From: a virus
IMG/VR virus record: IMGVR_UViG_3300045988_141143
Length of the DNA stretch: 64,000 bases
Reading direction: 5' to 3' (one strand)
Shown here in pieces: positions 9,185 to 45,100 of the stretch. How positions within the stretch are numbered: position 1 is the first letter of the stretch; every line of letters begins with the position of its first letter. The position numbers were made by a program, and so were the translations under genes. The notes under the pieces were generated by a model. The model searched no databases. It had not been told where the DNA came from and worked only from the letters and a program-made list of their open reading frames with translations.

Positions 9185-9229
9185 TATTAATAAAAAATAA
9201 GGGTGAGGTGCCCTTATTTAGACACCTCA
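9185..9229 (-). terminator. Rho-independent terminator
   Basis: Hairpin GTGAGGTG(9202-9209)/CACCTCAC(9222-9229) followed on the minus strand by CCTTATTTTTTATT. Confidence 0.4.
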
Positions 9230-10257
9230 CAAGTAAACGTGCCTCTCACTGCCACGTCAGCGTTGGACACCGTGACGTAAGGCTTGCTCGAAGCATTCAC
9301 CGCACTTGATGTACCGTTCCAGTTCGTGGCTACACCGCTGGCATTGTACTTCGTCCATTTGTAGATGTAGTTCGAGGCATGGTTGCTGTCTGCCTTCACC
9401 GCTGCACCATCCTCCACTACCTTGCCGTCTTTCCAGAGTCGGGCGTAAAGCTCCGTCGACTGCGAACCGTTCACTATCTTGTCGCCGGTCAGCGAATACA
9501 CCTCCACCACGTACGGGTCGCTCGCATCGAAGAACGTGATGATAGCGCTGGCCGTATCAGCACCGTCCTTCACCGTACAGCGGAAAGTCTGGAAGTTAAG
9601 CACGTCATTGGCGCTCACGTTCAGAGTGCTCACGCCGCCCGAAGTGCTCACGTTGCCCGAAGCCACGGCGTCCCATGTTCCTGCACTGATATTCAGCACC
9701 TCCCAAGTCATTGATGTCATGGTGGTGTCCTGCACGTTGCCACGGAAGAACTTGGCTATAGCACGCAGCTTATTGCTGTTGTTGGTCGAGTCGAACGTGT
9801 TGCCGTCGGGAGTCTCAATCTGCACCGTCTGAAGCGCACCGCCACTCTTAGCCAGCGAAATGGTCTTGTAGCCGATACACGTTGTCGTAGCCTTAGTTTC
9901 GGGGTCAGTATATTTGCACGACCACTCGATGTTCTTCACGCTGCCGTTCTTGTCGATGTTGCTGGCGAGGTTAAGCTGATACGACTTGCCGCTCACAGGA
10001 GTGGCAGCCACACCATCCAACTTCCACGACCATCCCGTACAAGCCGAGGTCGGAGCCTGGTCTGTAGCACTGCCCGTCACATATACACGGGCTGTTATCA
10101 CGTTTGGTTCACTCGACGAGTAGTTCGGAGTGTACACACCCGTGTCGGGGGTGTAAATCTGAGTCTCGCCCTTAGAGCATTGTGTAAAACACTGAACGGC
10201 CTTGCCGTCATTGAGGTCAACGATAGTAATCTGACCATTAGCTAATACTTTTGCCAT
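9214..10257 (-). CDS. Tail fiber-like protein
   Basis: 347 aa. N-terminal MAKVLANGQITIVDLNDGKAV resembles the N-terminus of the 880-aa fiber. Thr/Ser-rich, with a beta-rich composition. Confidence 0.45.
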   Translation of the reverse strand: MAKVLANGQITIVDLNDGKAVQCFTQCSKGETQIYTPDTGVYTPNYSSSEPNVITARVYVTGSATDQAPTSACTGWSWKLDGVAATPVSGKSYQLNLASNIDKNGSVKNIEWSCKYTDPETKATTTCIGYKTISLAKSGGALQTVQIETPDGNTFDSTNNSNKLRAIAKFFRGNVQDTTMTSMTWEVLNISAGTWDAVASGNVSTSGGVSTLNVSANDVLNFQTFRCTVKDGADTASAIITFFDASDPYVVEVYSLTGDKIVNGSQSTELYARLWKDGKVVEDGAAVKADSNHASNYIYKWTKYNASGVATNWNGTSSAVNASSKPYVTVSNADVAVRGTFTCEVSK

Positions 10258-10281
10258 AATCGTTTGTTTGTTTTAATATTA

Positions 10282-12597
10282 TTATATGTTACTATTAATA
10301 GTCTTTGTATCTGATACGCACACACTACATCCGAATTGTGCCTGTCTGTCTACGTCGTCACGTGTTATAAGACAGTTCCGGCCAATCCCCTCATGCAGCT
10401 TATTCCATACAGCATCATCTTCGGCATCAGCCGATTGTCGCCACCACGACCATGAGCTGTTGCCCACGGTGTCGCTTATGTCCTCGCCATTGCGTAGCAG
10501 CGTTGCCTTCAGCGTCATTTCGCCCGAACCGTTAATCATCACCGTGCCCGTATCGCTCGTTATCATTATCTGATAAGCCACGCCGTCCTCGCCCTTGTCT
10601 CCCTTCTCGCCTTTGCTTCCAGATAGAACTTTTTTCCATTGTGTCGAGCCGTCAGAAGGCTCACCTGTTACGTCCTCCTCTGAATTGGCAACACACACCC
10701 AAACGGCATTATTGTGATTTACTTGGTCGTTCTTATGATAGGTATTTCCTTCTACCCAGTCACCTCTATAATTGATGATATTAATAGTACTGCCGTCATC
10801 CGAAATCAATTCAAAGTGTGAGGAATTGATTTTCGTTCCACCCTTCGGTGAAGTCTCGAATACCGACAGAGATACTTCTTTGTTCTCGCCATTTACGCTT
10901 TTTGTGATAGTATGCTTGTACTCAGAGATATTAGCATAGCAAGCGATACGAGGAGCATAGTCGCCAGTTGTCTCAAGGATAATCACGTTCTGCCTGTCCG
11001 TCTTGTCGTACTCAAGATTGCCATTACGATGTCTGTTGCCGTCCAGCACGATTGTGTCGCCCTCAGCAGGGTCTCCCTTTATCTCAACAGGCGCATTCTT
11101 CTCTGTATATCCGTCTAAGCCTTCGGAATGCTTGCCAACGACAATCCAAGCAAACGCCTGACCATCGTACAATTCCACCTGTTCTTCTCTCGTCTGCTCC
11201 TTACCAGCTTCGTCAAGATAAGTCTCCGTTTTAGTGCCGTATATCTTCTCATTTTGCGTAGATACGCCACCATCAGGAATAGTACGCCAGTAACTCTTAT
11301 TACTTGTATCACTATATGCTCCACCAGCCACAATCTCGCCAATAGTCTGACAGCGCACTTGGTCGCCCTCCTGCCAGTAGTTCATCGTGGCAGTAGTTCC
11401 GTTGTCAGCTAAGAGATAGCATTTCCAGCCAGCGCATTCTGCATCATCCGCAGTTGTTTCTACCCAAGATATAACACCGTCAGCAGATACCGATTCCTTG
11501 ACAGGCACAACTTTGATAAGCTTGCTACCAGCTCCAGATAAATAGATGTTGCCTCCCGAATAAGACAGCTTGCGTACATCTAATTCGTGGAATATCGCCT
11601 TGCCCCAGATGGTGAGGTTCGTAACGAAGGCGTGATATTTTCCGTTATCCTTCTTAACAGCGAAACCCTGCTCTGCTTCGTTGTCGTAGTCGATGGACTG
11701 TAACGACTCAAAGATGGCACGTCCTGCCTCGTCTATCAACGCTCCTCCCTTACCAAAGTAAGCACCTCTGTTCAGCTTTACTAAAGCCTCGCTCACCAGT
11801 CCTTTGATAAAGGTAATCATGCCGTTTACCGTGTCATCATTCTCTTTGGATAAGAAATGGCGTACACCAAACTGCCCAAGGAACTCAGGAGTAACCACTT
11901 TGTTGGCTGACGTATCATCGGTGTTTTCTGTCGCTACGCCAACGATTTTATGTCCATTCAAGAAAAGGGTGGCGATAGTGGCTGTCGCTGCCTTGAGCGT
12001 AGTAAATGCTGCCACAGAGATGGTCTTCAGGAACTTGATGGTGTCGTGTACTGACTCATATCTCCACCACTGACCCTCGCCGCCGGAAGCTATCGCTTCG
12101 TCGGTGGCAAGAGAACCGTATTCCACAGTGAGAGTCCACTCACGATACTTTTCTATGATGTCCTGATCGTTCTCATCCTTACCTACATTTTTGGTCAGGA
12201 CCTCAGAGATTTCTCCTTGCAGATACACATAGTAATAGTCCTCGTTGCCCACCTGCTTGTCCGGAGATGCAATAGACTTACCGTAGATGTCAATGCGCTC
12301 GCTGGGGAATACCACCATTGCCGTACCGTTGACGCCATTGCTGACGCGCGGAATGGCTACGTAAACATACTTAGCCTTTGCATCAGGAAAGAGAGAGGGA
12401 TAAGCCACTAACGGCCAACGCTGATAGTTGTGCCCGGCATCGTAGCCCAGACCCTCAATGTCCTGCATATAGCATAGAATAGAAGCACCACTCGCCACGC
12501 TACACTGGATGTAGTTAGGCTCACCCATTGCGTTGAGTTGGATATAGAGCGCACTGCTCGAAATCCAATAATTCGTAATTTTGACTTCTGTTACCAT
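10282..12597 (-). CDS. Large virion structural protein (tail or baseplate)
   Basis: 771 aa, located in the structural gene run. No catalytic motifs seen. Confidence 0.4.
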   Translation of the reverse strand: MVTEVKITNYWISSSALYIQLNAMGEPNYIQCSVASGASILCYMQDIEGLGYDAGHNYQRWPLVAYPSLFPDAKAKYVYVAIPRVSNGVNGTAMVVFPSERIDIYGKSIASPDKQVGNEDYYYVYLQGEISEVLTKNVGKDENDQDIIEKYREWTLTVEYGSLATDEAIASGGEGQWWRYESVHDTIKFLKTISVAAFTTLKAATATIATLFLNGHKIVGVATENTDDTSANKVVTPEFLGQFGVRHFLSKENDDTVNGMITFIKGLVSEALVKLNRGAYFGKGGALIDEAGRAIFESLQSIDYDNEAEQGFAVKKDNGKYHAFVTNLTIWGKAIFHELDVRKLSYSGGNIYLSGAGSKLIKVVPVKESVSADGVISWVETTADDAECAGWKCYLLADNGTTATMNYWQEGDQVRCQTIGEIVAGGAYSDTSNKSYWRTIPDGGVSTQNEKIYGTKTETYLDEAGKEQTREEQVELYDGQAFAWIVVGKHSEGLDGYTEKNAPVEIKGDPAEGDTIVLDGNRHRNGNLEYDKTDRQNVIILETTGDYAPRIACYANISEYKHTITKSVNGENKEVSLSVFETSPKGGTKINSSHFELISDDGSTINIINYRGDWVEGNTYHKNDQVNHNNAVWVCVANSEEDVTGEPSDGSTQWKKVLSGSKGEKGDKGEDGVAYQIMITSDTGTVMINGSGEMTLKATLLRNGEDISDTVGNSSWSWWRQSADAEDDAVWNKLHEGIGRNCLITRDDVDRQAQFGCSVCVSDTKTINSNI

Positions 12598-12691
12598 GAT
12601 GATTTTTGATTATTTATTTTTAGATGTAGCAAAGTTACCGAAAACACTTTTCTTGATAGGGACAAAGCATGACGGGAGGGTGACACTTAGA

Positions 12692-12731
12692 TACAAAAAA
12701 ACGAAGGACACAGCCCTAAAGCCGATGTCCT
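12692..12731 (-). terminator. Rho-independent terminator
   Basis: Hairpin AAGGACA...TGTCCTT followed on the minus strand by CGTTTTTTTGTATC. Confidence 0.4.
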
Positions 12732-12763: not shown

Positions 12764-13816
12764 TCAGAGTAGAAGTGAACCATTAATATCGATCACTACT
12801 TTAAACGACAAAGCATACATATTGGTGTTAGTGTCATCCTGGATAGTGGTCTCGTCTTCCAAAGTGATGGTGCATGGAATCCAAATGCCGTGCGATAGAA
12901 TCCATGCGTGTTCGCTCATGGCAAACTCGTGCAGATACCAGTCGAGCCAATTCTCGTCGAGTGGGTCAGTAGTGAGATTCCAAGTTTCTTGATCATTCTG
13001 TTTCTTGACCGACGCACGAGAGAAGGAGTTGAACGTCTCCTGCTTTGCCACAATATACGATTCTGTTGTAAGCGCCATCTTACGGCTGTTGGCTTTCGGC
13101 AGACTGACACTCTCAAGTACACCAAACAGATTGATGAAGCGTATGGTGTAACGGTTGCTCGCCTCTGTAGCAGGAAGCGCATAGAGTTGGTGAGTACCGA
13201 TGGTCTGTAGTCCTTCCTGCGTAATCTCCTTAGAGACAGACGTGGGAGGAACCAGGGTCGGACTGTTACTGAGCAGTTGTTCTGTCTCGTATGATGGAGT
13301 ATAAATAAAGGTGTCACCCACAACGACGGGTTGCGGCAATGTGTTCGGCTTTCGGGTAAACGAAACGACTCCCTTGCTGAGTCCAGACAGAAGGCGCACC
13401 ATATCAGAGAAAGCACCCGCTATGCTGCGAAGGTTCGTATTGCCGGTTTCGTCGGGGTTTTGAGGATAAAACACCTCGCCTACATTGGTATGTATCTCAC
13501 CATTGCTATCCATATATTCATCGTAGGCATGGACGTACCAGCTCACGAAAGGATAGGTTGTCGGCTCGGGAGTATATTCGTAGGAGTCGAGTGCCGCACG
13601 GAGAGCTGACGATACATCAAGCGATACATCAGTGCCCTCTTTGGTGACAGGCTCATTGAGTTGTATGACATCATAGCTGCCGTCATTGTCGAACATGACC
13701 TCTACGACGACACGATGAAAAGAAGGTGTATTATCTGGAACTGACGGCGAGATGGTAAAAGTAACCGGGTTGCCAGCAAGGATTGAACCAGATGTAAGTA
13801 AAATATTCTTTGCCAT
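12764..13816 (-). CDS. Virion structural protein
   Basis: 350 aa, within the tail module. Confidence 0.35.
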   Translation of the reverse strand: MAKNILLTSGSILAGNPVTFTISPSVPDNTPSFHRVVVEVMFDNDGSYDVIQLNEPVTKEGTDVSLDVSSALRAALDSYEYTPEPTTYPFVSWYVHAYDEYMDSNGEIHTNVGEVFYPQNPDETGNTNLRSIAGAFSDMVRLLSGLSKGVVSFTRKPNTLPQPVVVGDTFIYTPSYETEQLLSNSPTLVPPTSVSKEITQEGLQTIGTHQLYALPATEASNRYTIRFINLFGVLESVSLPKANSRKMALTTESYIVAKQETFNSFSRASVKKQNDQETWNLTTDPLDENWLDWYLHEFAMSEHAWILSHGIWIPCTITLEDETTIQDDTNTNMYALSFKVVIDINGSLLL

Positions 13817-13879: not shown

Positions 13880-14128
13880 CTAAGACATTTTCTTCTCTAC
13901 GATAGCTGTCACATCAGACACAAGCTGTAAGTCTTTTGCCTCTTCTGGCGAAATCTTGATATGGAACATGGTTTCGGTCTGAAGAACGAGGTCGAGAAAG
14001 TCAATAGACTCAAGAGCAAGATCATCACGCAGGTTAGCGCTGTCGGTCACTTCTGCTGTCGATGCCCAAGGTGTGCGCAGGCCTTCAACGATATTGAACA
14101 CCCGCTGACGTATATCTTCTTTGTTCAT
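13880..14128 (-). CDS. Acyl carrier protein
   Basis: 82 aa, acidic. DDLALESIDFLDLV resembles the phosphopantetheine-attachment DSL-type motif and helix II. Its start overlaps the ketosynthase stop (ATGA). Confidence 0.65.
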   Translation of the reverse strand: MNKEDIRQRVFNIVEGLRTPWASTAEVTDSANLRDDLALESIDFLDLVLQTETMFHIKISPEEAKDLQLVSDVTAIVEKKMS

Positions 14129-15339
14129 GATGGTTGATATTTAGAGATGATGAATGATGAGTTGGTGCCTCCGAAGCCAAAGGCATTGCAGAGGATATGG
14201 TGTGCTGAGTACTCGCGTGACTGCATGACGAGATTGAGTTTGGGAAAAGCATTCTCGGCTGTGGTAGCCGCACCGAAGACAGTGTCTGTGTTGAGCATCA
14301 TGGATGCTTGAACGGCCTGCGATACACCAGCCATCCAGCACTCGTGCCCCGTCATGCCCTTGGTGGCTACGATATAAGGGCTCTCGGGGAATACCTTTCC
14401 GATGGCTTCTGCCTCTGCAGCATCGCCCAGCTCTGTACCTGTGGCATGGGCAAGGAGTACATCTATCATTCCTGCATCGAGTCCTGCCGATTCTATGGCC
14501 TTAATCATTGCCACTTCTTCCTGATAAGCATCCGGGGTACAGATGTTGGTGCCGTTGGTGGAGAAGCCGCAGCCGGAAAGTTCTGCCACGGGCGAGACTT
14601 CATAATCCTCGAAACGCAAGCTGTCGGAAGGCTCAAGAATGACACAGGCTGCACCACCCGAAGGAGCAAGACCATTGCGGCCTTTGCCGAAGGGCTGCAC
14701 CTTGTCGGGCGAGAAAACGCCCATGGCATCAAACGACAGCATGGAGAAGGGACCTGTCTCCTGTGCGCCAACGACAATCACCATGTCGGTTTGGCGCGTA
14801 TCAAGAAGCATCTTGGCAAGACCGATGGCATGACCTCCTCCGGCACAAGCCCCGCTGACGGTAAGCGAAAGTCCTTTCAGTCCGTAGATAGAGGCGAGAC
14901 TCATGCTGACGGTGGAATTGAGTGTACGGAACACTGCGCCTGCCCCTAAACGTCGGGTGTCGCGCTGTGTAATGGCAGTTGTCATTGCCTGATAGTTGTC
15001 TCCAGCCGTAGTGTCGTTGCTGACGATGACCGATACATTGTGAGACTGCAAGAACTCGGGAAGAATATTGGCTTCCATCAGAGCCTCGTTGACGGCAGAT
15101 AAGGAATATAGGGTCGGTTCGGAAAGACATTGCCGTTGAGCCCTGGTGAGTTCGGATAGCTTCCAAGGGTTCGGGTCATTTATCTTTCCGCACAGGTCGG
15201 ACTGATAACCTTTCTCGCTACGTGCGGGGTCGTGGTGAAGACCGCACTCTCCATACGCCAGCTTCTGTGCGACGGAAAAGGTATCGTTGCCAAGACAGGA
15301 AACGATACCTGTGCCTGTGATTAATATTTTTCTATCCAT
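14125..15339 (-). CDS. Beta-ketoacyl-ACP synthase (KAS I/II-like)
   Basis: SGACAGGGHAIG aligns to the FabF STACTSGVHNIGHA active-site Cys. HATGTELGD and ATKGMTGHECWMAG align to the two catalytic His residues. C-terminal NAFGFGGTNSSFI. Confidence 0.8.
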   Translation of the reverse strand: MDRKILITGTGIVSCLGNDTFSVAQKLAYGECGLHHDPARSEKGYQSDLCGKINDPNPWKLSELTRAQRQCLSEPTLYSLSAVNEALMEANILPEFLQSHNVSVIVSNDTTAGDNYQAMTTAITQRDTRRLGAGAVFRTLNSTVSMSLASIYGLKGLSLTVSGACAGGGHAIGLAKMLLDTRQTDMVIVVGAQETGPFSMLSFDAMGVFSPDKVQPFGKGRNGLAPSGGAACVILEPSDSLRFEDYEVSPVAELSGCGFSTNGTNICTPDAYQEEVAMIKAIESAGLDAGMIDVLLAHATGTELGDAAEAEAIGKVFPESPYIVATKGMTGHECWMAGVSQAVQASMMLNTDTVFGAATTAENAFPKLNLVMQSREYSAHHILCNAFGFGGTNSSFIISKYQPS

Positions 15340-15368: not shown

Positions 15369-18182
15369 TTACAAAGCATAGACGGTCAGTTCCACCTCTC
15401 CAATGCCTTCCTTAGCCGTGATAGTTGTATTCACCTTGTCGATAAGACATTTCACACCTCCGATGTTCCACCACGTCTTCCAATGGTTAGGTATGTCGGC
15501 TATCTGTGCGACAGAAGCCGAACAGCGGATGATGTACTTCTTGCGGTTAAGCAGAAAATAGGCGTAGGGCAAAATGAAGGTATCAAAAAGACCGCGTGAG
15601 CGTATCTTGGTTATCACGTTGCCTTTGGCATCCACCTCGTCGGGGTCGCAGAGAGAAACATCCTTGTATTCCGGCTTACTGAGCCATGACGGCTCTTTGA
15701 AAGCGCGTATCTTGAGCGAGAAGCGTTCACCTTTGCCTCTGCCTTCCTGCACACCATTGTAGTCGAATACATTGCCCATCATGTCAAGAGAGTCGCAAGC
15801 AAGAGCATACTCGCCTGCTGCCGTGCGCCACTTGGAAGTACCGAAGTGGTCATAGTTATAGTCATAGGGCTCTGTGGTTGCATTCGTACCGCCGCCTCGC
15901 ATCATGGCCAAGGCAAATCCCCATCGTGAATCGTCTTGAAGAGGCGAGTTGCCGTCTTCGGTGTTTGACGGGTCGTAACTCTCGACGAGTTTCAATGACT
16001 GCTGCATATAGAAGTCGCAGAAAGGCGAGGAGATGGTCTGGTTGATGATTTGCTCGACAAACTCATGTTCCATTTCCTCGTCGACATAGGCGCAGAGGAT
16101 GGGCTGTCCTTCCTTGATAACGACACCATAGGTTGTTGTCTTTGAATCATCATAGTACTTTGCCGTATGAGAGCCGTAAGCAGCCTCTATCTCCTTGAAA
16201 TAGTTGACATCGTTGAACGGCACGGGAGTGAAGTCGATGGTGATGTCGTGGATGAAGTCTTCATTCTCCTCGCTGCAATCACCATACTCCACACCCTTGT
16301 ACTGGCCTACCTCGAAAAGTACAGGTTTGAGGTCGGCTGTAGTAGTGGCGTCGCCATTCACCTTCACGCGATAGGCATTGCCCGTCTTGCGGTCGATGTA
16401 GCATCTTTTATCTCCAGAACTTAAATTATGAAAGAAGTCAACGTAATCTCGATCGTAAACCGTTTCGTTGTCTCCACTTCCCGGTTCGGGATAGTCGATA
16501 TAGTCGTAATCGGTGGCATAGCCCATATTTTTATTCTTGCGGCTGTCCTTGACGTTCTGCTGCTGATCCTTGGCATCGCTCTCTTCGGAGTATCGCATAC
16601 GTACACCCGTTATCTTCTCGCTGACGGGAATGATAGAATGAATGTCTGCGCGGAACGTGCGTGCTGGCTGTCCACTCTCGCGAAGCACGTCACGGATGAG
16701 GTAGGCCGTGACTTTCTTTTGCTCATAGTCGTAGGAGAACTTGATGCCGAAGGCGCTTTCCAAGGATGAGATAATCGTGCTGACACTCTCATCGGGGAAG
16801 TTGTCGCTGTTGGCCACCATATAGAGCACGTTGGCCTGCACGTTGAACTTAGAGATTTGCGCCTCGATGCTGATACCAGTCACCTTGCCGCCCTCTTTTG
16901 TCGTCTCTCCCACCTGTATGTGTTCGGAAGTCCCTTCGTTAGTGGTGAGGGTGAGCTCGTTGACCGTCTTGTCCTCTGCCTTTACGATGTTGATTTTTCC
17001 ACCACAACCGCGCGACTCCAACCAGGAGTTGATATGATCTTGCTTCTTGAAATATCCTTCCTTAATCTCGCCTTCCTTCTTTTTCTTGGCGATGACTTCG
17101 GGGTCGTCCTTCTTGTAGTATGTTCCGTGATGTGGATGCTCTTTGGTATCGTAGGCGCAAACGGTGGTGAAGAAACAGAGGTGCTTCATATCCTCTATCT
17201 GCATCAGTGCCGACTTGTCGAAGGTGACACCCAAGTGAGCAAACAGGCAGTCGAGAAAATAGAGTACATAGAAACAAATGCCCGACTGCGGACGGCGTGC
17301 GTCCAACACCCAATAGGGATAAAGATCTTCGTTAGTCCACTTGCAATCCTTTGTGCTGATAATGTCGCTCGATGTGGTGCCATCGTCTGCCAGTCCGTGG
17401 TGCTTGTAGCAGATACGGGCATTGCAATAGGCTGCGGGACGGCCTGCGCCATCAGTCTCGCCATAGGCTGCCGATGTGTTGATATAGTCGCCATTCTTGG
17501 CGATGGCGGGCTCGTTGACTGAATTTCCGTTGGGGTAGGATCGTGACGACTTTCTCTTGGCATCGGCCTTCATGTGTAAAGGATAAAGGATATTGGTGGT
17601 GTACTCCTGGCACGATGCAGGATAGGAGAAGCCAAGAGCCTGCGGTTCGAGCACTTTACTTACACTTACGTGCTCAGCATGAATGGTTCGGGTGACAGTC
17701 TCGTCATCCTTATGCTTTCCTCCCTCCACAAATACACTGACATTTACAACAGGGTCGCTCTCGATGTCTACCATTACATTGCCTATCTTCTCGCCGATGA
17801 TCAGTTCATCCTTGATGGGGATGTCACGACAGTTGAGCGATCCGATGAGGTCGCTGAAACTCTGTCTGCCTGCATTAATACTCATAGAGAGCGAGTCTTT
17901 TATCTCTTCAGCATCCTGCATGACGAGCGTACCGTTGCGGAAGGGCAGTCCGTCGGCATGAATGCGCGTAGGCAAATGCTCCATGTTGACAGCACGAAAC
18001 GATGCCCGCACGTCATCGATGTTCTTTACCAGCCATCGGTTGCCGTCGAGCGGAATGGAAAACGGATAGGCGAACATCTCGTTATCATTGAACACAGGGT
18101 TTTGGTCCTCTATGTCGATAGAGAAATCATCGGGCAGCGACACAGGGCGGTCGTTGATAAGTATGGTGAGATGTGAGTTCAT
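15369..18182 (-). CDS. Large virion protein
   Basis: 937 aa, in the structural run. Confidence 0.4.
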   Translation of the reverse strand: MNSHLTILINDRPVSLPDDFSIDIEDQNPVFNDNEMFAYPFSIPLDGNRWLVKNIDDVRASFRAVNMEHLPTRIHADGLPFRNGTLVMQDAEEIKDSLSMSINAGRQSFSDLIGSLNCRDIPIKDELIIGEKIGNVMVDIESDPVVNVSVFVEGGKHKDDETVTRTIHAEHVSVSKVLEPQALGFSYPASCQEYTTNILYPLHMKADAKRKSSRSYPNGNSVNEPAIAKNGDYINTSAAYGETDGAGRPAAYCNARICYKHHGLADDGTTSSDIISTKDCKWTNEDLYPYWVLDARRPQSGICFYVLYFLDCLFAHLGVTFDKSALMQIEDMKHLCFFTTVCAYDTKEHPHHGTYYKKDDPEVIAKKKKEGEIKEGYFKKQDHINSWLESRGCGGKINIVKAEDKTVNELTLTTNEGTSEHIQVGETTKEGGKVTGISIEAQISKFNVQANVLYMVANSDNFPDESVSTIISSLESAFGIKFSYDYEQKKVTAYLIRDVLRESGQPARTFRADIHSIIPVSEKITGVRMRYSEESDAKDQQQNVKDSRKNKNMGYATDYDYIDYPEPGSGDNETVYDRDYVDFFHNLSSGDKRCYIDRKTGNAYRVKVNGDATTTADLKPVLFEVGQYKGVEYGDCSEENEDFIHDITIDFTPVPFNDVNYFKEIEAAYGSHTAKYYDDSKTTTYGVVIKEGQPILCAYVDEEMEHEFVEQIINQTISSPFCDFYMQQSLKLVESYDPSNTEDGNSPLQDDSRWGFALAMMRGGGTNATTEPYDYNYDHFGTSKWRTAAGEYALACDSLDMMGNVFDYNGVQEGRGKGERFSLKIRAFKEPSWLSKPEYKDVSLCDPDEVDAKGNVITKIRSRGLFDTFILPYAYFLLNRKKYIIRCSASVAQIADIPNHWKTWWNIGGVKCLIDKVNTTITAKEGIGEVELTVYAL

Positions 18183-23007: not shown

Positions 23008-23031
23008 TTGCTTTTTTCGACTACAAATGTA
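23008..23031 (-). promoter_or_regulatory. Bacteroidetes-type promoter element (-7 TAnnTTTG) upstream of the 597-aa gene
   Basis: The minus strand reads TACATTTGTAGTCGAAAAAAGCAA. The identical 24-mer recurs at 24969-24992. Confidence 0.45.
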
Positions 23032-23326: not shown

Positions 23327-24145
23327 TTATCGTTTGATATTCCACATGTGCTCTGCCGGACCAACGAGCACGTCGATGTTTGCGCCCTGCTTCAGGGCCA
23401 CCGTCTCCACCCATTTAAGTTGAATAAACTGCTGTGGGTTAAGATTCATCTCGTTCATATACGCCTTGTCTGCCACAGCCTTTTGGCGTTCAGCCTTCTC
23501 GCGTGCCAACTGCACCTCATATTCACGTTCCTGCGTCTGCTTGGCCTGTACCATCTTTGCCGTGCGGTTCATTTCGGCAAGCTGTTCCTTGTTTGGGGTT
23601 GCCTTGCCGATGATAACGTCCTTGATGATGACGGGCATCGGCTTGTGCTTTGAGAGGGCAGCCACGTAATCCTGCATCTGCTTCAGAATCTTCTTGTCGA
23701 TGGTGCTCAATACCTGTCGGTTAGACATCAAATCGAATGGACTGTACTGCGAGATATGGTCTCTGATAAGATTGCAGAAATAGTTGTAGAGGTTGGTGTC
23801 AAACCAGTCGCGTCCATAGTTCTGCAACAGTATGGGAGACTTGCCTTGCTCCACCTGAGTGACTATGACAGAATGGAAGTCGAGTGGCGTGTTATCGTCG
23901 GAGAAGATGTCGTCAAGAACAACCTCGTGGCGTACAGGCACAATCTTGAATGTTTCAGAATGAGTACTCAGGGCACACCATGTCAAGCCACTCTGAACTG
24001 GGTCGTTGTCAACACCTCCGTGTCCGAAGAACCATGGTTTCTTTACCAACACGGTTTCCTCGTCAGCATCGGGCGACACAAAACAGCACGAGGATAACAT
24101 CACTACTGCGATAAGCGCAAAAAGAATTGAAAATAATTTTTTCAT
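23327..24145 (-). CDS. SPFH/band-7 domain lipoprotein
   Basis: Lipoprotein signal MKKLFSILFALIAVVMLSSC. SPFH-like core with a C-terminal coiled coil QAKQTQEREYEVQLAREKAERQKAVADKA. Start chosen at Met83 of the track ORF. Confidence 0.6.
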   Translation of the reverse strand: MKKLFSILFALIAVVMLSSCCFVSPDADEETVLVKKPWFFGHGGVDNDPVQSGLTWCALSTHSETFKIVPVRHEVVLDDIFSDDNTPLDFHSVIVTQVEQGKSPILLQNYGRDWFDTNLYNYFCNLIRDHISQYSPFDLMSNRQVLSTIDKKILKQMQDYVAALSKHKPMPVIIKDVIIGKATPNKEQLAEMNRTAKMVQAKQTQEREYEVQLAREKAERQKAVADKAYMNEMNLNPQQFIQLKWVETVALKQGANIDVLVGPAEHMWNIKR

Positions 24146-24287
24146 AATTGTTTTTTGTTTATATTGATTCATTAAAATCCTTATATATGACAATCGTACA
24201 TTGTCAATAGAGTGTCTGTAGGTATTCCAGTTCTTTCCAATTCTTTCAAAACTGGAAAGAACGGGAATGGCTATACACCCGCTGCCT

Positions 24288-24839
24288 TTACGACTCAATC
24301 TCGGGAGGGTTGCCACCAGGTTTCTGCTCGCCGCCTCCAGTGGTGCCGGAATCGCCCGTGCCGGGAGTTGCTGGAGCATCCGTTGCAGCATCGCCCACTC
24401 GCTTGAACGAGCCGTGCTGTGCGAAGGCGGCGGTGAACTTCTTGGAGAAGTCGATGGCTACGCCTGCGGTGAGGTCCTTTGTGGTGAGGTCGGCGGCGGT
24501 AATCTCTCGGTTCACGTCAACGTCCTCGCCTGCTGCCTTACGTGCTTCGAGCTTCGCCTTGAGCTGGCTCTGAGTGAGCGAACCGCTGACGGTAGGACGT
24601 ACCGTCATGCCCTCGGCAGACACCTGTACCTTGGTGCCCAGTGCCAACAGAAGCGGCAGCTTTTTCTCCAACTGCGTCATCACGGCCATTACGTCCGCTG
24701 CGCCTACTGTAGAGTCCTGCGCCATGTAGTCGCAAAATTCAGGGAATGACATCTGCTGCAAGTCAACGATCTGTGCGCTTGCAACCTTTTCTTTCGTGAA
24801 ATTATTCACACGAACTGCAATTCTTGTTTTGATTGCCAT
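24288..24839 (-). CDS. HU-family (Bacteroidetes-type) DNA-binding protein
   Basis: MAIKTRIAVRVNN...AQIVDLQQMSFPEFCDYMAQDSTVGAADVMAVMTQLEKKL fits the Bacteroidales HU-like N-terminal pattern. Gly-rich acidic tail. Confidence 0.55.
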   Translation of the reverse strand: MAIKTRIAVRVNNFTKEKVASAQIVDLQQMSFPEFCDYMAQDSTVGAADVMAVMTQLEKKLPLLLALGTKVQVSAEGMTVRPTVSGSLTQSQLKAKLEARKAAGEDVDVNREITAADLTTKDLTAGVAIDFSKKFTAAFAQHGSFKRVGDAATDAPATPGTGDSGTTGGGEQKPGGNPPEIES

Positions 24840-25024: not shown

Positions 25025-25795
25025 TCAGAACAGCGTGAGCTGTGCTTGCTCCAACTTGATGCGCTTGCAAGCCTTGTCGTAATACTCCTTGTTGAGCTCA
25101 AAGCCGATGAAGTTGCGCTTCTCTTTTATACAAGCAATGGCGGTGGTGCCGCTGCCCATGCAGTTGTCTAATATGGTGTCGCCCTCGTTGGAGTAAGTAC
25201 GGATGAGGTACTGGATGAGAGCGACAGGCTTTTGAGTGGGGTGGAAGCTGTTGTGAATATCCCTCTGAAATAAGACAATATCGGTTGGATATTTTTCGTC
25301 GGTTATCATATCCTTCACTTTGCCATAATTTCCGTAACATCTGTTGGTTTGCTCTTTCTCTTGCTTTCCTCTGCTGTGATTGCGTTCATGTGGAAGACAT
25401 TTGCGCATTTGTGGATGATAGGTTGGCTGTCCGTCGTAGAAAACGGAAATCATCTCCGTTTGCTTTAGAGGCATCTTCTTTGTGTTCAAAAAGCCAGTTG
25501 TACGGCATTTATCCCACGTGATATTATAGCGCCACATCTTTTCATTGCTCATCATCAGTTTTGCCGTGAACATACCCTGTCCGAACAATATTATAGCCGC
25601 ATTGGGCTTACTGATACGAAGATATTGCTTCCATAAAGAATCAAGTGGAATAATACTATCCCATCCTCCTCCTTCGCTCTGCTTATTGAGGACACCATAC
25701 GGCAAATCGCACACAATGCAATCCACGCTTCCGTCTGGAATCCTTTTCATTCCTTCGAGGCAGTCTTCATTATATATTTTGTTCAGTTCTATCAT
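25025..25795 (-). CDS. DNA methyltransferase (beta-class N6A/N4C)
   Basis: Motif IV VCDLPYG precedes motif I DNCMGSGTT. N-terminal IYNEDCLEGMKRIPDGSVDCIV. Confidence 0.8.
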   Translation of the reverse strand: MIELNKIYNEDCLEGMKRIPDGSVDCIVCDLPYGVLNKQSEGGGWDSIIPLDSLWKQYLRISKPNAAIILFGQGMFTAKLMMSNEKMWRYNITWDKCRTTGFLNTKKMPLKQTEMISVFYDGQPTYHPQMRKCLPHERNHSRGKQEKEQTNRCYGNYGKVKDMITDEKYPTDIVLFQRDIHNSFHPTQKPVALIQYLIRTYSNEGDTILDNCMGSGTTAIACIKEKRNFIGFELNKEYYDKACKRIKLEQAQLTLF

Positions 25796-30530: not shown

Positions 30531-31439
30531 TTATCGCATGGCTTCCTCAAGAGTTCTAATATAAGGTATGGCTTCGTTGCGCACAATGTCGAGAAAAAGT
30601 TGTGCTGACCGCTTCATCGGCACGTCCTTCATCCAGTGGGCATTGCTCATCAGGTCGTGCTCAAGCCCAGCGATGGGACGGACGGTAAGGGTGGGGTGAC
30701 TCTTCAGATAAAGTTTAGGCATGAAAGTAACACAATGGGTTTCTTCCACGATGGCAAGGTCTTCGTTGGGGTCGCTCACAATACATTTTACATTCAGTTT
30801 CATCAAGTCGTATCTCAGATATTGCTGGAAGGTATTGAACACCCTTTCGCCTACATCGGGCATAATCACGTTGTGCCTTAACAAATCCTCGTATGACACC
30901 TTTTCCAGTCGGGCCAAAGGATGGGTGTCCCGCATCATCGCATAGATACGGAAAGGAATACAGGGTTCTGACTTGATACCCTCATTCTTGTAGGCAGAGT
31001 TCAGAGTGAAGGCGAGGTCAATGGAGTGGCTTCTCAACAGGTGGTTCAAGTTCGCTGCCTTGGCAAACTCGGCGTTGATTCTCACATTCGGGTATCGCTC
31101 CATGAAGATAAGTGCAGCCATCCGAATGTAAGGTGCGATAAAAGAGCCTACACCTATCCTCAGCTCGCCCACAAGGCAGTTGTTGAGCGCATTGATTTGC
31201 TCCTTGCAGTCATCCGTCTGCTTCAGTATCTCCTTGGCGCGAGGCAAAAGCGCCTCGCCGCTCTCGGTGAGCATGATGCTGTGCGAGGTGCGGATAAGCA
31301 GCTTGCACCTCAGTTCATCCTCAAGAGCCTTGATGTGCTGACTGATGGCGGACTGAGTGACACAACAGCGCGTGGCTGCAATGCTGAAAGATAAAGTTTC
31401 AGCGACATATACAAATGAGCGCAAATGACGAAGTTCCAT
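30531..31439 (-). CDS. LysR-family transcriptional regulator
   Basis: N-terminal HTH MELRHLRSFVYVAETLSFSIAATRCCVTQSAISQHIKALEDEL followed by a LysR substrate-binding-like domain. Confidence 0.75.
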   Translation of the reverse strand: MELRHLRSFVYVAETLSFSIAATRCCVTQSAISQHIKALEDELRCKLLIRTSHSIMLTESGEALLPRAKEILKQTDDCKEQINALNNCLVGELRIGVGSFIAPYIRMAALIFMERYPNVRINAEFAKAANLNHLLRSHSIDLAFTLNSAYKNEGIKSEPCIPFRIYAMMRDTHPLARLEKVSYEDLLRHNVIMPDVGERVFNTFQQYLRYDLMKLNVKCIVSDPNEDLAIVEETHCVTFMPKLYLKSHPTLTVRPIAGLEHDLMSNAHWMKDVPMKRSAQLFLDIVRNEAIPYIRTLEEAMR

Positions 31440-41280: not shown

Positions 41281-42199
41281 ATCTTAGTTATTATACTTAA
41301 TACTTTCACTGCAAAATTAAGAAATAAAACCTAAATAACAAAATATCTGGGGTATTTTCTTGTGTATTTAAGATATATTAAAAGAAATTTAATCGAAATA
41401 TCCCAGTTGTTTCACGTAATGATAGGTATTTTTGAGTGATGAGAAGGAGCATAAAATAAAATGAGACCAAAAAGAAGACTCTGGTCTCATTTCTGTATCA
41501 AAAAGTCCCATTTTTCAAAAATGAACCAAAAAGCAAAAGTCCACTCATCCTATTTTTCTCCTTTTTAGTCCCATGATTGTCTCACGATTATCACCCTGTT
41601 GCCCACTTATTTCTTGCTGTTACTTGCTTACTAATTAGCTTTTTATATTATTTTGGTCTCAAAATGATTATTTTTTTTATAAACTAATATGCGCATAAGA
41701 AATAAAATATTTATCTAAAAGATATAAAATACAGCAAAATTGGCTCAAATCCATCTTATACTTTGCTCCATTTCAATCTTGTAAGTAACTTATTGTCTGA
41801 TGTTTACGGCAAAGCCGTTAATGCTACTAACTTCTAAATTGAGGTTAGGGGCTTTTGATTTTAGGAGAATAAAAAAATTACCCAAAATTCTGATATAGTA
41901 TGCTTAGGATTCATGAAAAATGCGACCAAAACCCTGAAATGAGACCAAAAATGCGAATAAAGTCCCAATAAATGAGACTGTTACACCACTACTCTACCCT
42001 GTCACATTCATATTTGCGAAATGCGACCAGATTATTCGGATTCCATATTGACTATCGTTTTATAGCCGTTCACACCTCACAGCGAAAGAGAAAAACACTG
42101 CGTTTCACAACGAAAAAAGACCACCACGTTTCACAACGGAGCGGTCTCATCAGAAAATACTAACTAATAAATAAGATAAAGAAAATAAAATTCGTAAAC
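41281..42199. promoter_or_regulatory. AT-rich non-coding region with ATG(A/C)GACCAAAA iterons, putative replication origin
   Basis: Copies at about 41461, 41480 (inverted), 41521, 41653 (inverted), 41919, 41939, 42021 and 42141 (inverted). Inverted repeat GAGACC...GGTCTC at 41463-41488. AAAGTCCCA repeats. Confidence 0.4.
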
Positions 42200-45100
42200 T
42201 TAGCCCTTGCCTTTCATAAACTGGTTGGCTTTTGTCATGCTGTCATAAAGATTACCACGGCCATACATGTCTATCTTTGCGTAGATAGGTTCATTCAGTC
42301 GGTCGAGGAGGGTCTTGACGGCTTGCATGAGAGCGGCTTGGCTGGCTGTGTTGTTAGCGATTACATTGTTGGCCGCTGGTGCGCCCAACAGAAGATTACC
42401 ATTTTCTGCTGTAAAGCCCGCTGCTGCGTCCCCCATTGCGCTCGCAAGCTCGCCGACATTACCATTGTCAAATGCGCGTCTTGCTGCACGTCTGCCTGAA
42501 TAGTTGCTGTCGTAGTTGACGAGAGCCTTGAGGAGTGCCGGATTGTTCATCATCATGGCGTGTGTCGTCTCACGACCGATTACTATCTCGGGTCCATTCT
42601 CTGCTACAAGAGAAGGCTGGCCATTGATGGTAGTAGCCCTTGGAGTAGTTATCATTTGCACGCCAGTTTTTTGCCTGCCGTCATCCTCTGTTGCCCAATA
42701 AATATCACCATTGTCGGCTACAAATGGCTTCAGGTCTTGCACGTTACCGCTGTCATACGTAAGCATACCTGAAACGAGCTTCGTGTTTTTAGATACAGAA
42801 GAAGATTTCTTACTGCTGCTGCTGAAAGCCGAATTAAGTGCCCACTGAAGCAAGCCCATCAGAGTAGCCATCACTCCTGCTGCAGCAATAGGACCAGCAA
42901 TAGGACCTAAGAACTCAAAACACTTCGCCATTGCTCCCGCGATAGAGAATGTCACCTCTTGGTCGGTGCGGGCCGCGTCCGAGTTTGCCACATCCTGATT
43001 GTTCTGTTCTTTAGCTGCAAGATTGGTGGTCATAGCCGTCTGGGTCATATCAAGAATGGCATTCTGCGCTATCTCCGTACTCTTACTTTGCTCTTTATTG
43101 CCGGCATCGGTGATGTCAGTTATATTCTTGACACCTTGATGGGTTTCTTTCTCTCTATCCTTAGCTCCCTTTTTAACCTCTTTGCTGAGTTCTTTTTGAT
43201 GCTTCCTTTCTTTCTTGAGCTGCTTGGCTTTTTCCTTGTCGTCTCCAGTTTTCTTTGAAGAACCGCCAAGAGTGAAATTGGTATTCATCAAGTCACCCAC
43301 AAGGCTGCCTCCGATACCGGCTACGGCATCGGACAGAGTAGTACCACCTGTAATAGCACCAGCAACGGCTGTTCCCGCTTGAGAGGCTGTATCAATACCG
43401 TAAGTCTCCTTGTTATAATCATGGATAGTACCGTTTGGATGACGTTTCTTCCATGCAGCAGGAGGCTCAGTATTTGCAAGATTGTTGCCGTTGGCATCAA
43501 TATACTGACCTCCTACGACACGTACCCACATCGGGTTTTCAGCCGTGCCCAGGTTACGCCAATCCATATCAATGGTAGTAGCATTAGCATTAGCATTGGC
43601 TCTCGCTGCATCAATGCCAGGCTGTGCGTTTTTCTTGCCTTGTTTCGCTCCGGCATCATTGATGGCTTTCCACATTTGGGTGTTCACGTCATTTAGCGCC
43701 ATATTAGCCCACGACTCAATCATAGACTTCAGGGCATTCTTGATGCTCTCCTGTGCGCTTGATACGTCAGACTCCATCATGGCGAAAGCCTTGCCTACCT
43801 CTGCACCGAAGGTTTCAATAGGCTGTACGAGCTGCTGCATCTGCGAAAGGCGGTTCTTCATCGCCGTCGCCATTTGGTTGGCATAAGCAAGTTCGGCCTC
43901 CTGGCGAGCCTTATCCGCCTCGTCTACCAACTGCTTGTTACGAGAGTTCTTCAGACAGAAGGCATAGTAATCTTCTGCCAGCTGCATCTTCAGCTTCAGT
44001 AGTTCTACCTCTGGGTCAGCGGTAAGGTCGGCAAGACCGAGGTTGGAAAGAAGGTTGGTCCGCTTGCCGAAGAGAGAACTTTCCTGCTGCATCTTGCGCA
44101 GCTTTGCCTGCTGATCGAGATTGCGTTTGTTGTTTTTCCAAAGAAAATCAGAAATCTTCTTGGCTTCATCGTATTCTTTTTTCTGTGCAGCTGTATATTC
44201 ATCAACATATTGGATAAGCTTGTGATAGAATAGCTTTACATTCTGCTCAGTCTCGCCCATCAACGCAAGAAAGACAGAAGGCATCTGCATATAGTCTTTT
44301 CCAAATAAGAACTGAAGCAGCTTCTGCTTCTCCCCGTTTGTCTCAAAAAGTGCCGCCATTTGTGTGCGAGCCTTTTCCAAAACTTTTATAACATCAGCCC
44401 TATCTTTATTTAGCGTTTCAAGCGAAACGTCTGCAAAACGAGAATTTATTAATCCCAAGAAAGAATTTTGTTGAACTATGCCTGTGTAATCATGTTCAAG
44501 TAGCTCCTTCCGACGTTGCTCTATGCGTTTTTGAATCACATTGCTTGAATCGTTCTCTTTTGATGAAGCATTCAGCCACATTCGGTCAAGATAAGCACGG
44601 TCGCGTTCATCTGATTTATATCCGACAACTTGCCCTTTCTTAATTTTAGGCATTTGCTTTAATAAATCAGAACGAAGTTGTGCTACATTAGTATTCAATA
44701 TGGCATCCTCAAGCATACGAGACTGAGATTGTCCAAACTCATCGTCTTTTTCCTTGCGATATTTGTCTATTGATTTTTTAAATTTATCCCAAGTTTTATT
44801 TCCAAAGACAATAGACTGCTGCGCAGCTGCAAGGGCAGCATCCATTTGTATTTGAATGTCATTAACTGCCTGTTCTTGTAATTCTTTCTCTACACCCTTC
44901 TTTGAAAGATCCTCAACAGTAGCTGTCATTTGGCGCTTATAGAAATTCTTTATCTTCGTAATAAACTCAGATATGTTGTTGCGAGCATCATCTTCAGGAG
45001 TAGTTGTGTTACCTCCACCACCGTTGCCGCCATAAACTTTTTGACCTACAGCCATTCCATCTCCTACATCAAGTTTAGCCCCAAACTTTTTCCGTAAGGC

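What the first reader, a model, noticed from the sequence alone, without database searches (positions are those of the whole stretch)
13880..15339. Acyl carrier protein plus KAS I/II-type ketosynthase pair embedded in the virion tail module
The 404-aa protein keeps the full Cys-His-His KAS triad (SGACAGGGHAIG, HATGTELGD, ATKGMTGHECW). The 82-aa protein upstream has the ACP Ser-motif region (DDLALESIDFLDLV). The two are translationally coupled (ATGA overlap). They sit between two large structural genes rather than in a metabolic operon. A dedicated ACP plus elongating ketosynthase is the minimal unit for making or extending an acyl or polyketide chain. In a phage this could acylate a virion component, produce a lipid signal, or remodel host envelope lipids for lysogenic conversion or superinfection exclusion. 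No acyltransferase, ketoreductase or thioesterase partner is visible, so the unit would rely on host enzymes for those steps. Phage-encoded ACP-KAS pairs in structural modules are, to my knowledge, not characterised.
Basis: partly seen in the sequence, partly recalled or inferred. Interest (0 to 1): 0.8.

Follow-up and report, generated by a model that had tools for sequence, protein, structure and literature searches.

The report
Ketosynthase–carrier protein cassette in gut phage
A large family of about 100-kb gut phages, probably infecting Prevotella, carries an intact, strongly conserved two-gene unit for extending acyl chains; it was inserted between two tail-region genes, is best read as a metabolic add-on rather than a virion part, and its product is unknown.

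Summary
On the minus strand, a 404-aa KAS I/II-type ketosynthase (14125-15339) overlaps by ATGA an 82-aa acyl carrier protein (13880-14128). The ACP lies downstream of the KS, not upstream.

Cys165, His298, Lys327, His332 and the GFGG loop are invariant in 57 distinct homologues. The ACP Ser41 is invariant in 42. dN/dS is 0.12 for the KS and 0.17 for the ACP.

The pair sits at the same place in all 68 related loci, mostly from about 100-kb phage contigs. So it is not a recent host pick-up.

The link to the virion looks incidental:
- Five more distant relatives have the two flanking genes directly adjacent, with no KS or ACP.
- A related phage group carries ACP-KS between the tape-measure-like gene and the primase.
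- About 170-kb T4-like contigs also carry the pair.

The phage KSs form their own clade (91% bootstrap). Their nearest cellular relatives are Bacteroidota KSs next to a ketoreductase in aryl-polyene/flexirubin-like clusters, and they share the GHECW signature.

No PPTase, malonyl transferase, reductase, dehydratase or thioesterase was found in the window.

Best reading: an accessory elongating KS plus dedicated ACP that depends on host enzymes. The product is unknown.

The parts
14125..15339 (-). Elongating beta-ketoacyl synthase (KAS I/II type, 404 aa). Catalytic residues are Cys165, His298, Lys327 and His332, with gating loop F387-G-F389-G-G and the lineage signature G331-H-E-C-W.
   Evidence: ORF. 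Pfam N and C domains. Best NCBIfam hit is FabB at 191 bits against a 630 cut-off. Full-length alignment to FabB structures. Catalytic residues invariant in 57 distinct homologues. dN/dS 0.12. Phylogeny and motifs.
13880..14128 (-). Dedicated acyl carrier protein (82 aa, pI 4.5). The phosphopantetheine-attachment Ser41 lies in the motif L-E-S-I-D-F-L-D.
   Evidence: ORF. PP-binding 1.1e-4. NCBIfam ACP models 1e-12 but below cut-offs. phrog_5934 'acyl carrier protein' 5.5e-8. Alignment to solved ACPs. Ser41 invariant in 42 distinct homologues. dN/dS 0.17. pI and alignment with other ACPs.
14125..14128 (-). ATGA overlap of the KS stop and the ACP start, which allows translational coupling.
   Evidence: Read directly from the sequence. 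The overlap is present in 12 of 67 related loci. The others have gaps of 2-83 nt, and one has 363 nt.
15369..18182 (-). Upstream neighbour g937, a highly conserved phage protein of unknown function. It marks the ancestral left flank of the insertion site.
   Evidence: No Pfam, PHROG or PDB sequence match. No INPHARED match. 69-99% identity across the clade and dN/dS about 0.05-0.07. Directly followed by the g350 homologue in sister phages. The AF2 model failed at pLDDT 27.
12764..13816 (-). Downstream neighbour g350, an all-beta phage protein. It marks the ancestral right flank of the insertion site and is probably a tail or baseplate component, not an enzyme.
23024..23031 (-). Bacteroidota-type -7 promoter motif (TAnnTTTG) upstream of g597. 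Inferred start of the operon that contains KS-ACP.
   Evidence: This and the motif at 12630-12637 are the only minus-strand matches between 12630 and 23031. This is motif evidence only.
12705..12717 (-). Terminator-like hairpin plus T-run just after g350. Inferred end of the operon.
   Evidence: Consensus scan. Not evidence of function on its own.
9214..12597 (-). Context: a tail-fibre-like protein (10282-12597) and a tail protein (9214-10257) downstream. These are the basis for calling this a tail region.
   Evidence: phrog_17422, phrog_2929 and phrog_35697 match the C-terminal part. phrog_3267 'tail protein' scores 2.2e-59.

Best explanation
The pair is an accessory metabolic cassette of a phage: a catalytically competent elongating ketosynthase plus its own acyl carrier protein. 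It was inserted into a late operon between two conserved phage genes and has since been kept under purifying selection.

Proposed mechanism, with each step marked as shown or inferred:
1. KS and ACP are co-transcribed with their neighbours g597 to g350 (inferred from promoter and terminator motifs). They can be translationally coupled (shown by the ATGA overlap).
2. A host phosphopantetheinyl transferase converts apo-ACP to holo-ACP at Ser41 (inferred; no PPTase in the window).
3. Host FabD loads malonate onto the phage ACP (inferred; no malonyl transferase in the window).
4. The KS takes an acyl primer onto Cys165. His298 and His332, with Lys327, decarboxylate malonyl-ACP, and a Claisen condensation gives 3-oxoacyl-ACP (inferred from invariant residues and full-length homology to FabB).
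5. Host reductase, dehydratase and release enzymes finish the chain (inferred).

The net effect is to add to, or redirect, host acyl-lipid synthesis during infection. The affected product could be fatty acyl or aryl-polyene-like outer-membrane lipid. This resembles how the rhizobial NodE/NodF pair uses housekeeping FAS enzymes.

The position in the tail region marks the insertion site and does not indicate a virion function. The product is unknown.
For: Enzyme identity and integrity.

Purifying selection: dN/dS is 0.12 for the KS and 0.17 for the ACP, similar to or slightly above the neighbours.

Age: the order g597-DUF6712-g358-g222-g937-KS-ACP-g350-fibre is kept in all 68 loci. KS identity is 58-98% and the flanks diverge in step.

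Insertion: five sister loci have g937 directly followed by g350, with gaps of 5 and 12 nt in the two checked, and no KS or ACP.

Independence from the tail context:
- A related group of about 100-kb phages shares the tape-measure-like protein (32-42% identity), primase (44-46%) and ThyX (38-40%). It carries ACP-KS between the tape-measure-like gene and the primase.
- Other phage-like contigs carry ACP-KS in a replication module, or KR-KS-ACP.
- About 170-kb T4-like contigs carry KS-ACP.

Phylogeny: the phage KSs are monophyletic, with 100% support for the window clade and 91% with the other phage KSs. They are separate from the Bacteroidota chromosomal clade (100%) and from FabB and FabF.

Dependence on the host:
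- None of the Pfam families listed for the 66 window ORFs (top 25 of 34) is a PPTase, FabD, KR, DH, TE or acyltransferase.
- None of the families listed for 106 ORFs around ten other viral KS genes (top 25 of 29) is one of these either.
Against: No expression, activity or product data exist.

The operon structure rests only on motif scans.

Pfam searches of pooled ORFs list only the top 25 families, so weak hits to partner enzymes could be hidden. The window also covers only about 64 kb of a genome of about 100 kb.

The strictly conserved position between two probably structural genes over 58-98% KS divergence is compatible with a functional link to them.

The two immediate neighbours remain without a confident fold, so a non-canonical acyltransferase among them is not excluded.

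The tree is neighbour-joining on 398 columns, not maximum likelihood.
Confidence: 0.6

Rival explanations
1. Specific hijack of the host aryl-polyene/flexirubin-like pathway. The phage KS would act like ApeR, the FabB-like KS that raises throughput of aryl-polyene synthesis. Together with its ACP it would boost or alter production of the host's polyene outer-membrane lipid, for example to keep the infected cell protected from oxidative stress.
For: The nearest cellular relatives (36-43% identity) are Bacteroidota KSs located next to a KR in clusters that also hold ACPs, ApeP/ApeI-like dehydratases, an LpxL-like acyltransferase, a 4HBT thioesterase, MMPL and LolA.

Derived motifs are shared only with that lineage: GNDS, HATxT, RDGLxPSG and GHECWMxG.

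Prevotella and Segatella genomes carry such clusters.

One phage lineage carries KR-KS-ACP, matching the ApeQ-ApeR arrangement.

The role of ApeR is described in PMC8358021.
Against: The phage KSs fall outside the chromosomal clade, which has 100% bootstrap support excluding them.

Identity is only about 40%, so specificity may have changed.

In PDB sequence searches the window KS scores higher against FabB (135-169 bits) than against the proteobacterial ApeR homologue 4EWG (100 bits) (4EWG is identified as an ApeR homologue).

The phage ACP is no closer to the cluster ACPs (22-28% identity) than to E. coli AcpP (27%).

It has not been shown that the actual host has the cluster.
Confidence: 0.2
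2. Virion-linked role. The cassette would make an acyl chain that is attached to a tail or baseplate protein. Alternatively, the KS and ACP would themselves be packaged or delivered with the tail.
For: The cassette keeps an invariant position between g937 and g350, just upstream of tail-fibre genes, in all 68 loci.

It is apparently co-transcribed with them.

In the sister group the cassette again lies next to a tail gene, the tape-measure-like protein.
Against: Sister phages have the same flanking genes abutting without the cassette, so this gene block also occurs without it.

The same KS-ACP family occurs next to primase and ThyX, and in non-structural regions of T4-like contigs.

No transferase that could move an acyl group from ACP to a protein was found.

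g350 has a fold common in phages, and its fold matches are to uncharacterised proteins from a wide range of phages.
Confidence: 0.12
3. Non-catalytic takeover role. The phage ACP and/or KS would act as decoys that bind host FAS components or malonyl-ACP and shut down or throttle host lipid synthesis.
For: Phages commonly encode small proteins that interfere with host metabolism. The ACP is acidic and shaped like a host ACP. No downstream enzymes are encoded.
Against: A decoy would not need every catalytic residue, the gating loop and the carrier Ser kept invariant across 57 and 42 distinct sequences. Nor would it need the KS-ACP pairing kept in several phage lineages.
Confidence: 0.05
4. Recent host-derived passenger or decaying gene pair with no function for the phage.
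For: GC content is slightly higher in the KS kilobase (0.54) than in some neighbours.
Against: Only one close copy (65% identity) exists among 185,579 species genomes. It is on a 22.6-kb contig binned with a Prevotella MAG, and all other genome hits are 43% identity or less.

The pair is monophyletic and has co-diverged with the phage backbone.

dN/dS is 0.12-0.17, with intact ORFs in all loci.

Window GC ranges from 0.35 to 0.58, so 0.54 is not anomalous.
Confidence: 0.02

Closest known systems
ApeR-type (FabB-like) ketosynthases and their ACPs in aryl-polyene/flexirubin-like gene clusters (ApeR described in PMC8358021)
   Same: Stand-alone KAS I-like KS of about 400 aa with the Cys-His-His triad. 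The Bacteroidota KSs adjacent to a KR in such clusters are the nearest cellular relatives (36-43% identity). They share GNDS, HATxT, RDGLxPSG and GHECWMxG with the phage KS.
   Different: The phage KS lies in a separate, virus-only clade. It comes with only an ACP and has none of the KR, DH, CLF-type KS, adenylating, acyltransferase, thioesterase or export genes. It sits in a phage late operon. The substrate is unknown.
E. coli FabB/FabF with AcpP (housekeeping type II fatty-acid synthase)
   Same: Same fold, same catalytic residues, same gating GFGG loop and same carrier-protein logic. Full-length alignment to solved FabB structures reaches 1.3e-48.
   Different: About 25-30% identity. Scores are 191 and 180 bits against equivalog cut-offs of 630 and 494. 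There are distinct substitutions around the pocket (FabB F229 -> L, GHSLG -> GHECW). The ACP has E-S rather than D-S at the attachment site.
Rhizobial NodE/NodF (dedicated KS plus ACP making the polyunsaturated acyl chain of Nod factors); from my own knowledge, not tested here
   Same: A minimal two-gene unit of a specialised KS plus its own ACP, which borrows all other steps from the housekeeping FAS. This is the best analogy for how the cassette could work.
   Different: No sequence comparison with NodE or NodF was made here. NodEF is encoded on a symbiosis plasmid, works with a defined acyltransferase (NodA) and has a known product. The phage pair has no known acceptor or product.
Predicted viral lipid AMGs: fabG-acpP-fabF in Rhodobacteraceae prophages (PMC8224337) and PHROG 5934 'acyl carrier protein'
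   Same: Phage-associated ACP, with or without a KS, annotated as auxiliary metabolic genes. The window ACP matches phrog_5934 at 5.5e-8. The precedent is described.
   Different: Those cases are computational annotations that keep the host-like order fabG-acpP-fabF. Here the KS forms a virus-specific clade, and no PHROG matched it at E <= 0.001. The cassette is a bare KS-ACP pair that recurs in several phage groups at different genomic positions.

Membership tests
Elongating beta-ketoacyl-ACP synthases (thiolase fold, Pfam PF00109 + PF02801) | Both the N- and C-terminal KS domains score above the gathering thresholds | tested here: met
   91.7 and 71.9 bits against a 20.8 cut-off
Elongating beta-ketoacyl-ACP synthases (thiolase fold, Pfam PF00109 + PF02801) | Cys-His-His catalytic triad plus the conserved Lys and the GFGG gating loop | tested here: met
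   Cys165, His298, Lys327, His332 and F387-G-F-G-G align with FabB C163, H298, K328, H333 and F390-F392. They are invariant in 57 homologues.
Elongating beta-ketoacyl-ACP synthases (thiolase fold, Pfam PF00109 + PF02801) | Decarboxylative condensing activity with malonyl-ACP | not testable with these tools
   Needs an enzyme assay
FabB (KAS I) / FabF (KAS II) orthologues | Score at or above the NCBIfam equivalog cut-off | tested here: not met
   FabB model: 191 bits against 630. FabF model: 180 bits against 493.75.
ApeR-like KS of Bacteroidota aryl-polyene/flexirubin-like clusters | Lineage-specific sequence signatures (GNDS, HATxT, RDGLxPSG, GHECWMxG) | tested here: met
   Shared by all phage KSs and all chromosomal cluster KSs. 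Absent from FabB, FabF and the ApeO/CLF-like KSs of the same cluster.
ApeR-like KS of Bacteroidota aryl-polyene/flexirubin-like clusters | Falls inside the chromosomal clade in a phylogeny | tested here: not met
   The chromosomal clade of 16 sequences has 100% bootstrap support and excludes all phage KSs. The phage KSs form their own clade at 91%.
ApeR-like KS of Bacteroidota aryl-polyene/flexirubin-like clusters | Encoded within a cluster with KR, dehydratases, CLF-type KS, acyltransferase, thioesterase and exporter genes | tested here: not met
   None of these appeared among the Pfam families listed for the 66 window ORFs or for ORFs around ten other viral KS genes. One separate phage lineage does have an adjacent KR.
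Acyl carrier proteins (PF00550) | PP-binding domain with the conserved Ser at the start of helix II | tested here: met
   22.8 bits against a 20.8 cut-off. Ser41 aligns with the DSL serine of solved ACPs. Invariant in 42 homologues. The motif is E-S-I-D rather than D-S-L-D.
Acyl carrier proteins (PF00550) | Housekeeping AcpP equivalog score | tested here: not met
   Best NCBIfam ACP model scores 48.1 bits against a cut-off of 66.
Acyl carrier proteins (PF00550) | 4'-phosphopantetheinylation in vivo | not testable with these tools
   Needs mass spectrometry. No phage PPTase was found in the window.
Phage accessory (moron/AMG-type) cassette | Absent from related phages that keep the same flanking genes | tested here: met
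   L208 and L213, and also L223 and L226, have g937 directly followed by g350, with gaps of 5 and 12 nt in L208 and L213.
Phage accessory (moron/AMG-type) cassette | Own promoter and terminator (classical moron) | tested here: inconclusive
   There is no Bacteroidota -7 motif on the minus strand between 12638 and 23023, and no convincing terminator after the ACP. The cassette appears embedded in the operon, but this rests on motif scans only.
Virion structural or virion-associated protein | Presence in purified particles | not testable with these tools
   Needs virion proteomics. The context evidence argues against it.

The most novel reading that the evidence does not exclude
Phages of gut Bacteroidota maintain a virus-specific lineage of ketosynthase plus carrier protein. 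It would make a dedicated lipid or polyketide-like product during infection. Possibilities are an acyl group attached to a tail or baseplate protein, an envelope lipid that changes receptor access, or a small molecule sensed by the phage's own LysR-type regulator. This would amount to a form of viral secondary or lipid metabolism with its own product, rather than a simple boost of host fatty-acid synthesis.
Probability: 0.15. Interest if true: 0.8.

Novelty: new member of a known kind. Interest (0 to 1): 0.5.

Why it matters
These phages are common. The protein search returned well over 100 sequence clusters of this KS, and the IMG/VR scans returned about 60 contigs, mostly of 85-110 kb. Several contigs came from samples or bins labelled Prevotella or Segatella, a dominant genus of the human gut.

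A two-gene acyl-chain extension unit has been kept under purifying selection and recurs in at least three or four phage groups at different genomic positions. This argues that manipulating host acyl-lipid or polyene-lipid synthesis pays off for these viruses.

The pair is small and easy to express and assay. It would give a direct handle on what lipid chemistry a gut phage needs from its host. It also links a viral gene lineage to the very widespread but poorly understood aryl-polyene/flexirubin-type clusters of Bacteroidota.

It does not, on present evidence, point to lipidated virions.

Tried and rejected
Neighbour annotation:
- Sequence searches of the neighbours g350, g937, g222, g597 and g358 against PDB found nothing useful.
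- Searches of g937 and g350 against INPHARED phages found no match.
- Megablast of the region against INPHARED found no match.
- AlphaFold2 of g937 with 16 homologues, all at least 79% identical, failed at mean pLDDT 27. It was not used.

Regulatory and RNA scans:
- The sigma-70 promoter scan is at background level and is not appropriate for Bacteroidota. I used the TAnnTTTG motif instead.
- Rfam found nothing in the window.

Literature: searches for phage KS/ACP in gut or Prevotella phages gave nothing specific. The only precedent found is the Rhodobacteraceae prophage AMG report.

Ideas rejected:
- FabB or FabF orthology, because of the NCBIfam cut-offs.
- Recent host acquisition.
- A relic of the cassette at the TMP-primase junction of the window. 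tblastn found no trace there.
- ACP-KS next to the primase in the 80 closest primase relatives. None has it.

Technical note: a first Biopython run of dN/dS and of the tree timed out and was replaced by my own code.
Full report
**1. The observation**

On the minus strand there is a 404-aa ORF at 14125-15339 and an 82-aa ORF at 13880-14128. The stop codon of the first and the start codon of the second overlap as ATGA.

Transcription runs from high to low coordinates. The ketosynthase (KS) therefore comes first and the acyl carrier protein (ACP) follows.

Profile and structure-sequence searches confirm both identities:
- Pfam finds both halves of a beta-ketoacyl synthase (7.7e-26 and 5.8e-20) and a PP-binding domain (1.1e-4, just above the curated cut-off).
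- The KS aligns over its full length with solved FabB structures (best 4xox, 1.3e-48). Cys165, His298, Lys327 and His332 are in register with FabB C163, H298, K328 and H333.
- The ACP aligns with solved ACPs, with Ser41 at the phosphopantetheine site.

**2. The setting is a phage**

The window encodes the following phage-type genes:
- a 1983-aa tape-measure-like protein;
- a phrog_3267 tail protein and a fibre-like protein;
- a match to the head-maturation-protease PHROG;
- a GH108 endolysin and a holin;
- a BT4734/PriCT_2 primase and ThyX;
- several DNA methyltransferases and Cro/CI-like regulators.

Close relatives of the KS lie on contigs of about 85-110 kb in IMG/VR and other assemblies. 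Some sources label them Bacteriophage, Prevotella or Candidatus Segatella. The host assignment rests on such labels and on one binned contig, so it is only probable.

**3. The cassette is conserved and functional**

In all 68 related loci the gene order is g597 - DUF6712 protein - g358 - g222 - g937 - KS - ACP - g350 - fibre. KS identity ranges from 58% to 98%, and the flanking genes diverge in step.

Residue conservation and selection:
- Among 57 distinct KS sequences, the catalytic Cys, both His, the Lys and the GFGG gating loop are invariant.
- Among 42 distinct ACPs, Ser41 and most of the surrounding L-E-S-I-D-F-L-D motif are invariant or nearly so.
- Nei-Gojobori dN/dS is 0.12 for the KS and 0.17 for the ACP. 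The neighbours range from 0.05 to 0.15.

Neither is the case.

**4. What kind of KS it is**

It is not a FabB or FabF orthologue. The best NCBIfam scores are 191 and 180 bits, against cut-offs of 630 and 494.

An exhaustive search of cluster representatives shows one tight family, then a set of stand-alone KSs at 36-45% identity. Their contexts fall into two classes.

The first class is chromosomal and widespread in Bacteroidota, including Segatella albensis and several Prevotella. There the KS sits next to a ketoreductase. The cluster also contains ACPs, further KS or CLF-like genes, an O-methyltransferase, an LpxL-like acyltransferase, a 4HBT thioesterase, ApeP/ApeI-like dehydratases, MMPL and LolA. 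This is an aryl-polyene/flexirubin-like cluster. By position and by its FabB-like character, this KS corresponds to ApeR (PMC8358021).

The second class is phage-like:
- ACP-KS beside a large tape-measure-like gene.
- KR-KS-ACP on a 55-kb contig.
- ACP-KS in a replication module with primase, ThyX and a sliding clamp.

A neighbour-joining tree (398 columns, 200 bootstraps) gives these results:
- The window clade has 100% support.
- It joins the other phage-context KSs at 91%.
- The 16 chromosomal KSs form a separate clade at 100%.
- FabB, FabF and the ApeO/CLF-like KSs lie outside both.

Phage and chromosomal lineages share derived motifs that FabB and FabF lack: GNDS, HATxT, RDGLxPSG and GHECWMxG.

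**5. Does the tail-region position carry meaning?**

Three results say it is an insertion site.

First, five IMG/VR loci from more distant relatives (g937 at 38-49% identity) lack the KS and ACP. In four of them the g937 homologue is directly followed by the g350 homologue. The gaps are 5 and 12 nt in the two checked by ORF listing.

Second, another group of about 100-kb phages shares with the window the tape-measure-like protein (32-42% identity), the primase (44-46%) and ThyX (38-40%). It carries the pair in the opposite order (ACP then KS), between the tape-measure-like gene and the primase. The window has no trace of a KS at that junction. None of the 80 closest primase relatives has one there either.

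Third, T4-like contigs of about 170 kb also carry KS followed by an 82-aa ORF.

A classical self-contained moron is not indicated. The Bacteroidota -7 motif occurs on the coding strand only before g597 and before the fibre gene. A terminator-like hairpin follows g350. The pair therefore seems to be read as part of the g597-g350 operon. This is motif evidence only.

**6. Partner enzymes**

Pfam scans were run on 66 ORFs of the window and on 106 ORFs around ten other viral KS genes. None of the listed families was a phosphopantetheinyl transferase, malonyl-CoA:ACP transacylase, ketoreductase, dehydratase, enoyl reductase, thioesterase or acyltransferase. The one exception among all loci examined is the KR in the contig. 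The pooled scans list only the 25 most frequent families, so weak hits could be hidden.

The immediate neighbours gave little:
- g350 is an all-beta protein. Its moderate-confidence model matches 71 uncharacterised viral proteins and, weakly, phage baseplate and tail-tip domains.
- The g937 model failed.

A hidden transferase is therefore unlikely but not excluded.

**7. Most likely mechanism**

- Shown: an intact condensing enzyme and an intact carrier protein, coupled in one unit, kept by selection, and repeatedly retained by phages independently of their neighbours.
- Inferred: activation of the ACP by a host PPTase and malonylation by host FabD.
- Inferred: acylation of Cys165, decarboxylative condensation to 3-oxoacyl-ACP, and completion by host reductive and release enzymes.

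The outcome would be extra or redirected acyl-lipid synthesis during late infection. The logic resembles NodE/NodF (from my own knowledge).

Given the ancestry of the KS, one specific version is that it plugs into the host aryl-polyene-like pathway, as ApeR does (confidence 0.2). Virion acylation (0.12), a decoy role (0.05) and a functionless passenger (0.02) are less well supported, for the reasons given under each rival.

**8. Comparison with what is known, and novelty**

The components are canonical type II KS and ACP. Phage ACPs already have a PHROG family in the AMG category. A fabG-acpP-fabF set has been reported computationally in Rhodobacteraceae prophages (PMC8224337). I found no paper describing or testing this gut-phage KS-ACP family.

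I class it as a new member of a known kind. Three points are new:
- a virus-specific KS clade related to ApeR-like enzymes;
- its recurrence as a bare KS-ACP pair in several phage groups;
- clear evidence that it was inserted between two adjacent late genes.

**9. Verdict**

Interest is moderate at 0.5. This is a well-defined, abundant and experimentally tractable phage metabolic cassette with an unknown product. It is not a surprise in kind.

Noticed in passing
window 30531-31439 (-): A full-length LysR-type transcriptional regulator (HTH_1 2e-20 plus LysR_substrate 2.1e-28; phrog_3736) is encoded in the phage. A ligand-sensing regulator is unusual cargo for a phage, and its ligand is unknown.
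   Followed up: no
window 23327-24391 (-); L013 15496-16281 and 12823-13821: An SPFH/Band_7 membrane-scaffold protein (also phrog_200 'lipoprotein') lies just upstream of the operon that holds KS-ACP. The unrelated KR-KS-ACP phage contig L013 also has Band_7 and OmpA genes a few kb from its KS. This may hint at a membrane-related function.
   Followed up: no
window 41281-42199: An AT-rich (GC about 0.35) stretch of about 900 nt with no long ORF lies between the tape-measure-like gene and the primase. The gap length is conserved at 760-960 nt in about 50 related contigs. In a sister phage group the same junction holds the ACP-KS cassette. There is no Rfam hit.
   Followed up: partly
L003, L005 and L006, about 19.8-21.2 kb: Relatives carry a diversity-generating retroelement (bAvd, an RVT_1 reverse transcriptase and an Lcl_C-type target protein) downstream of the fibre genes. 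The region after the fibre genes is highly variable between relatives.
   Followed up: no
window 42200-48151 (-) relative to 9214-12597 (-): The tape-measure-like gene is separated from the fibre and tail genes by about 27 kb. That stretch holds a primase, ThyX, methyltransferases, an endolysin and a LysR regulator, so the tail genes are not in one contiguous block.
   Followed up: no
window 25025-25795 (-), 62104-63348 (-) and others: The window encodes several DNA methyltransferases (N6/N4 and C5 types). It also encodes a PAPS-reductase-like protein, a guanylate kinase and a YopX protein. This suggests extensive anti-restriction and nucleotide-metabolism cargo.
   Followed up: no
L299, L300, L302 and L304 (IMG/VR contigs of 160-175 kb): Large T4-like contigs carry a distant KS (33-36% identity) followed by an 82-aa ORF. 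The surrounding genes include Terminase_6N, endonuclease VII, NAPRTase, RNase H and MazG. So the KS-ACP pair also reaches myovirus-like jumbo-range genomes.
   Followed up: partly
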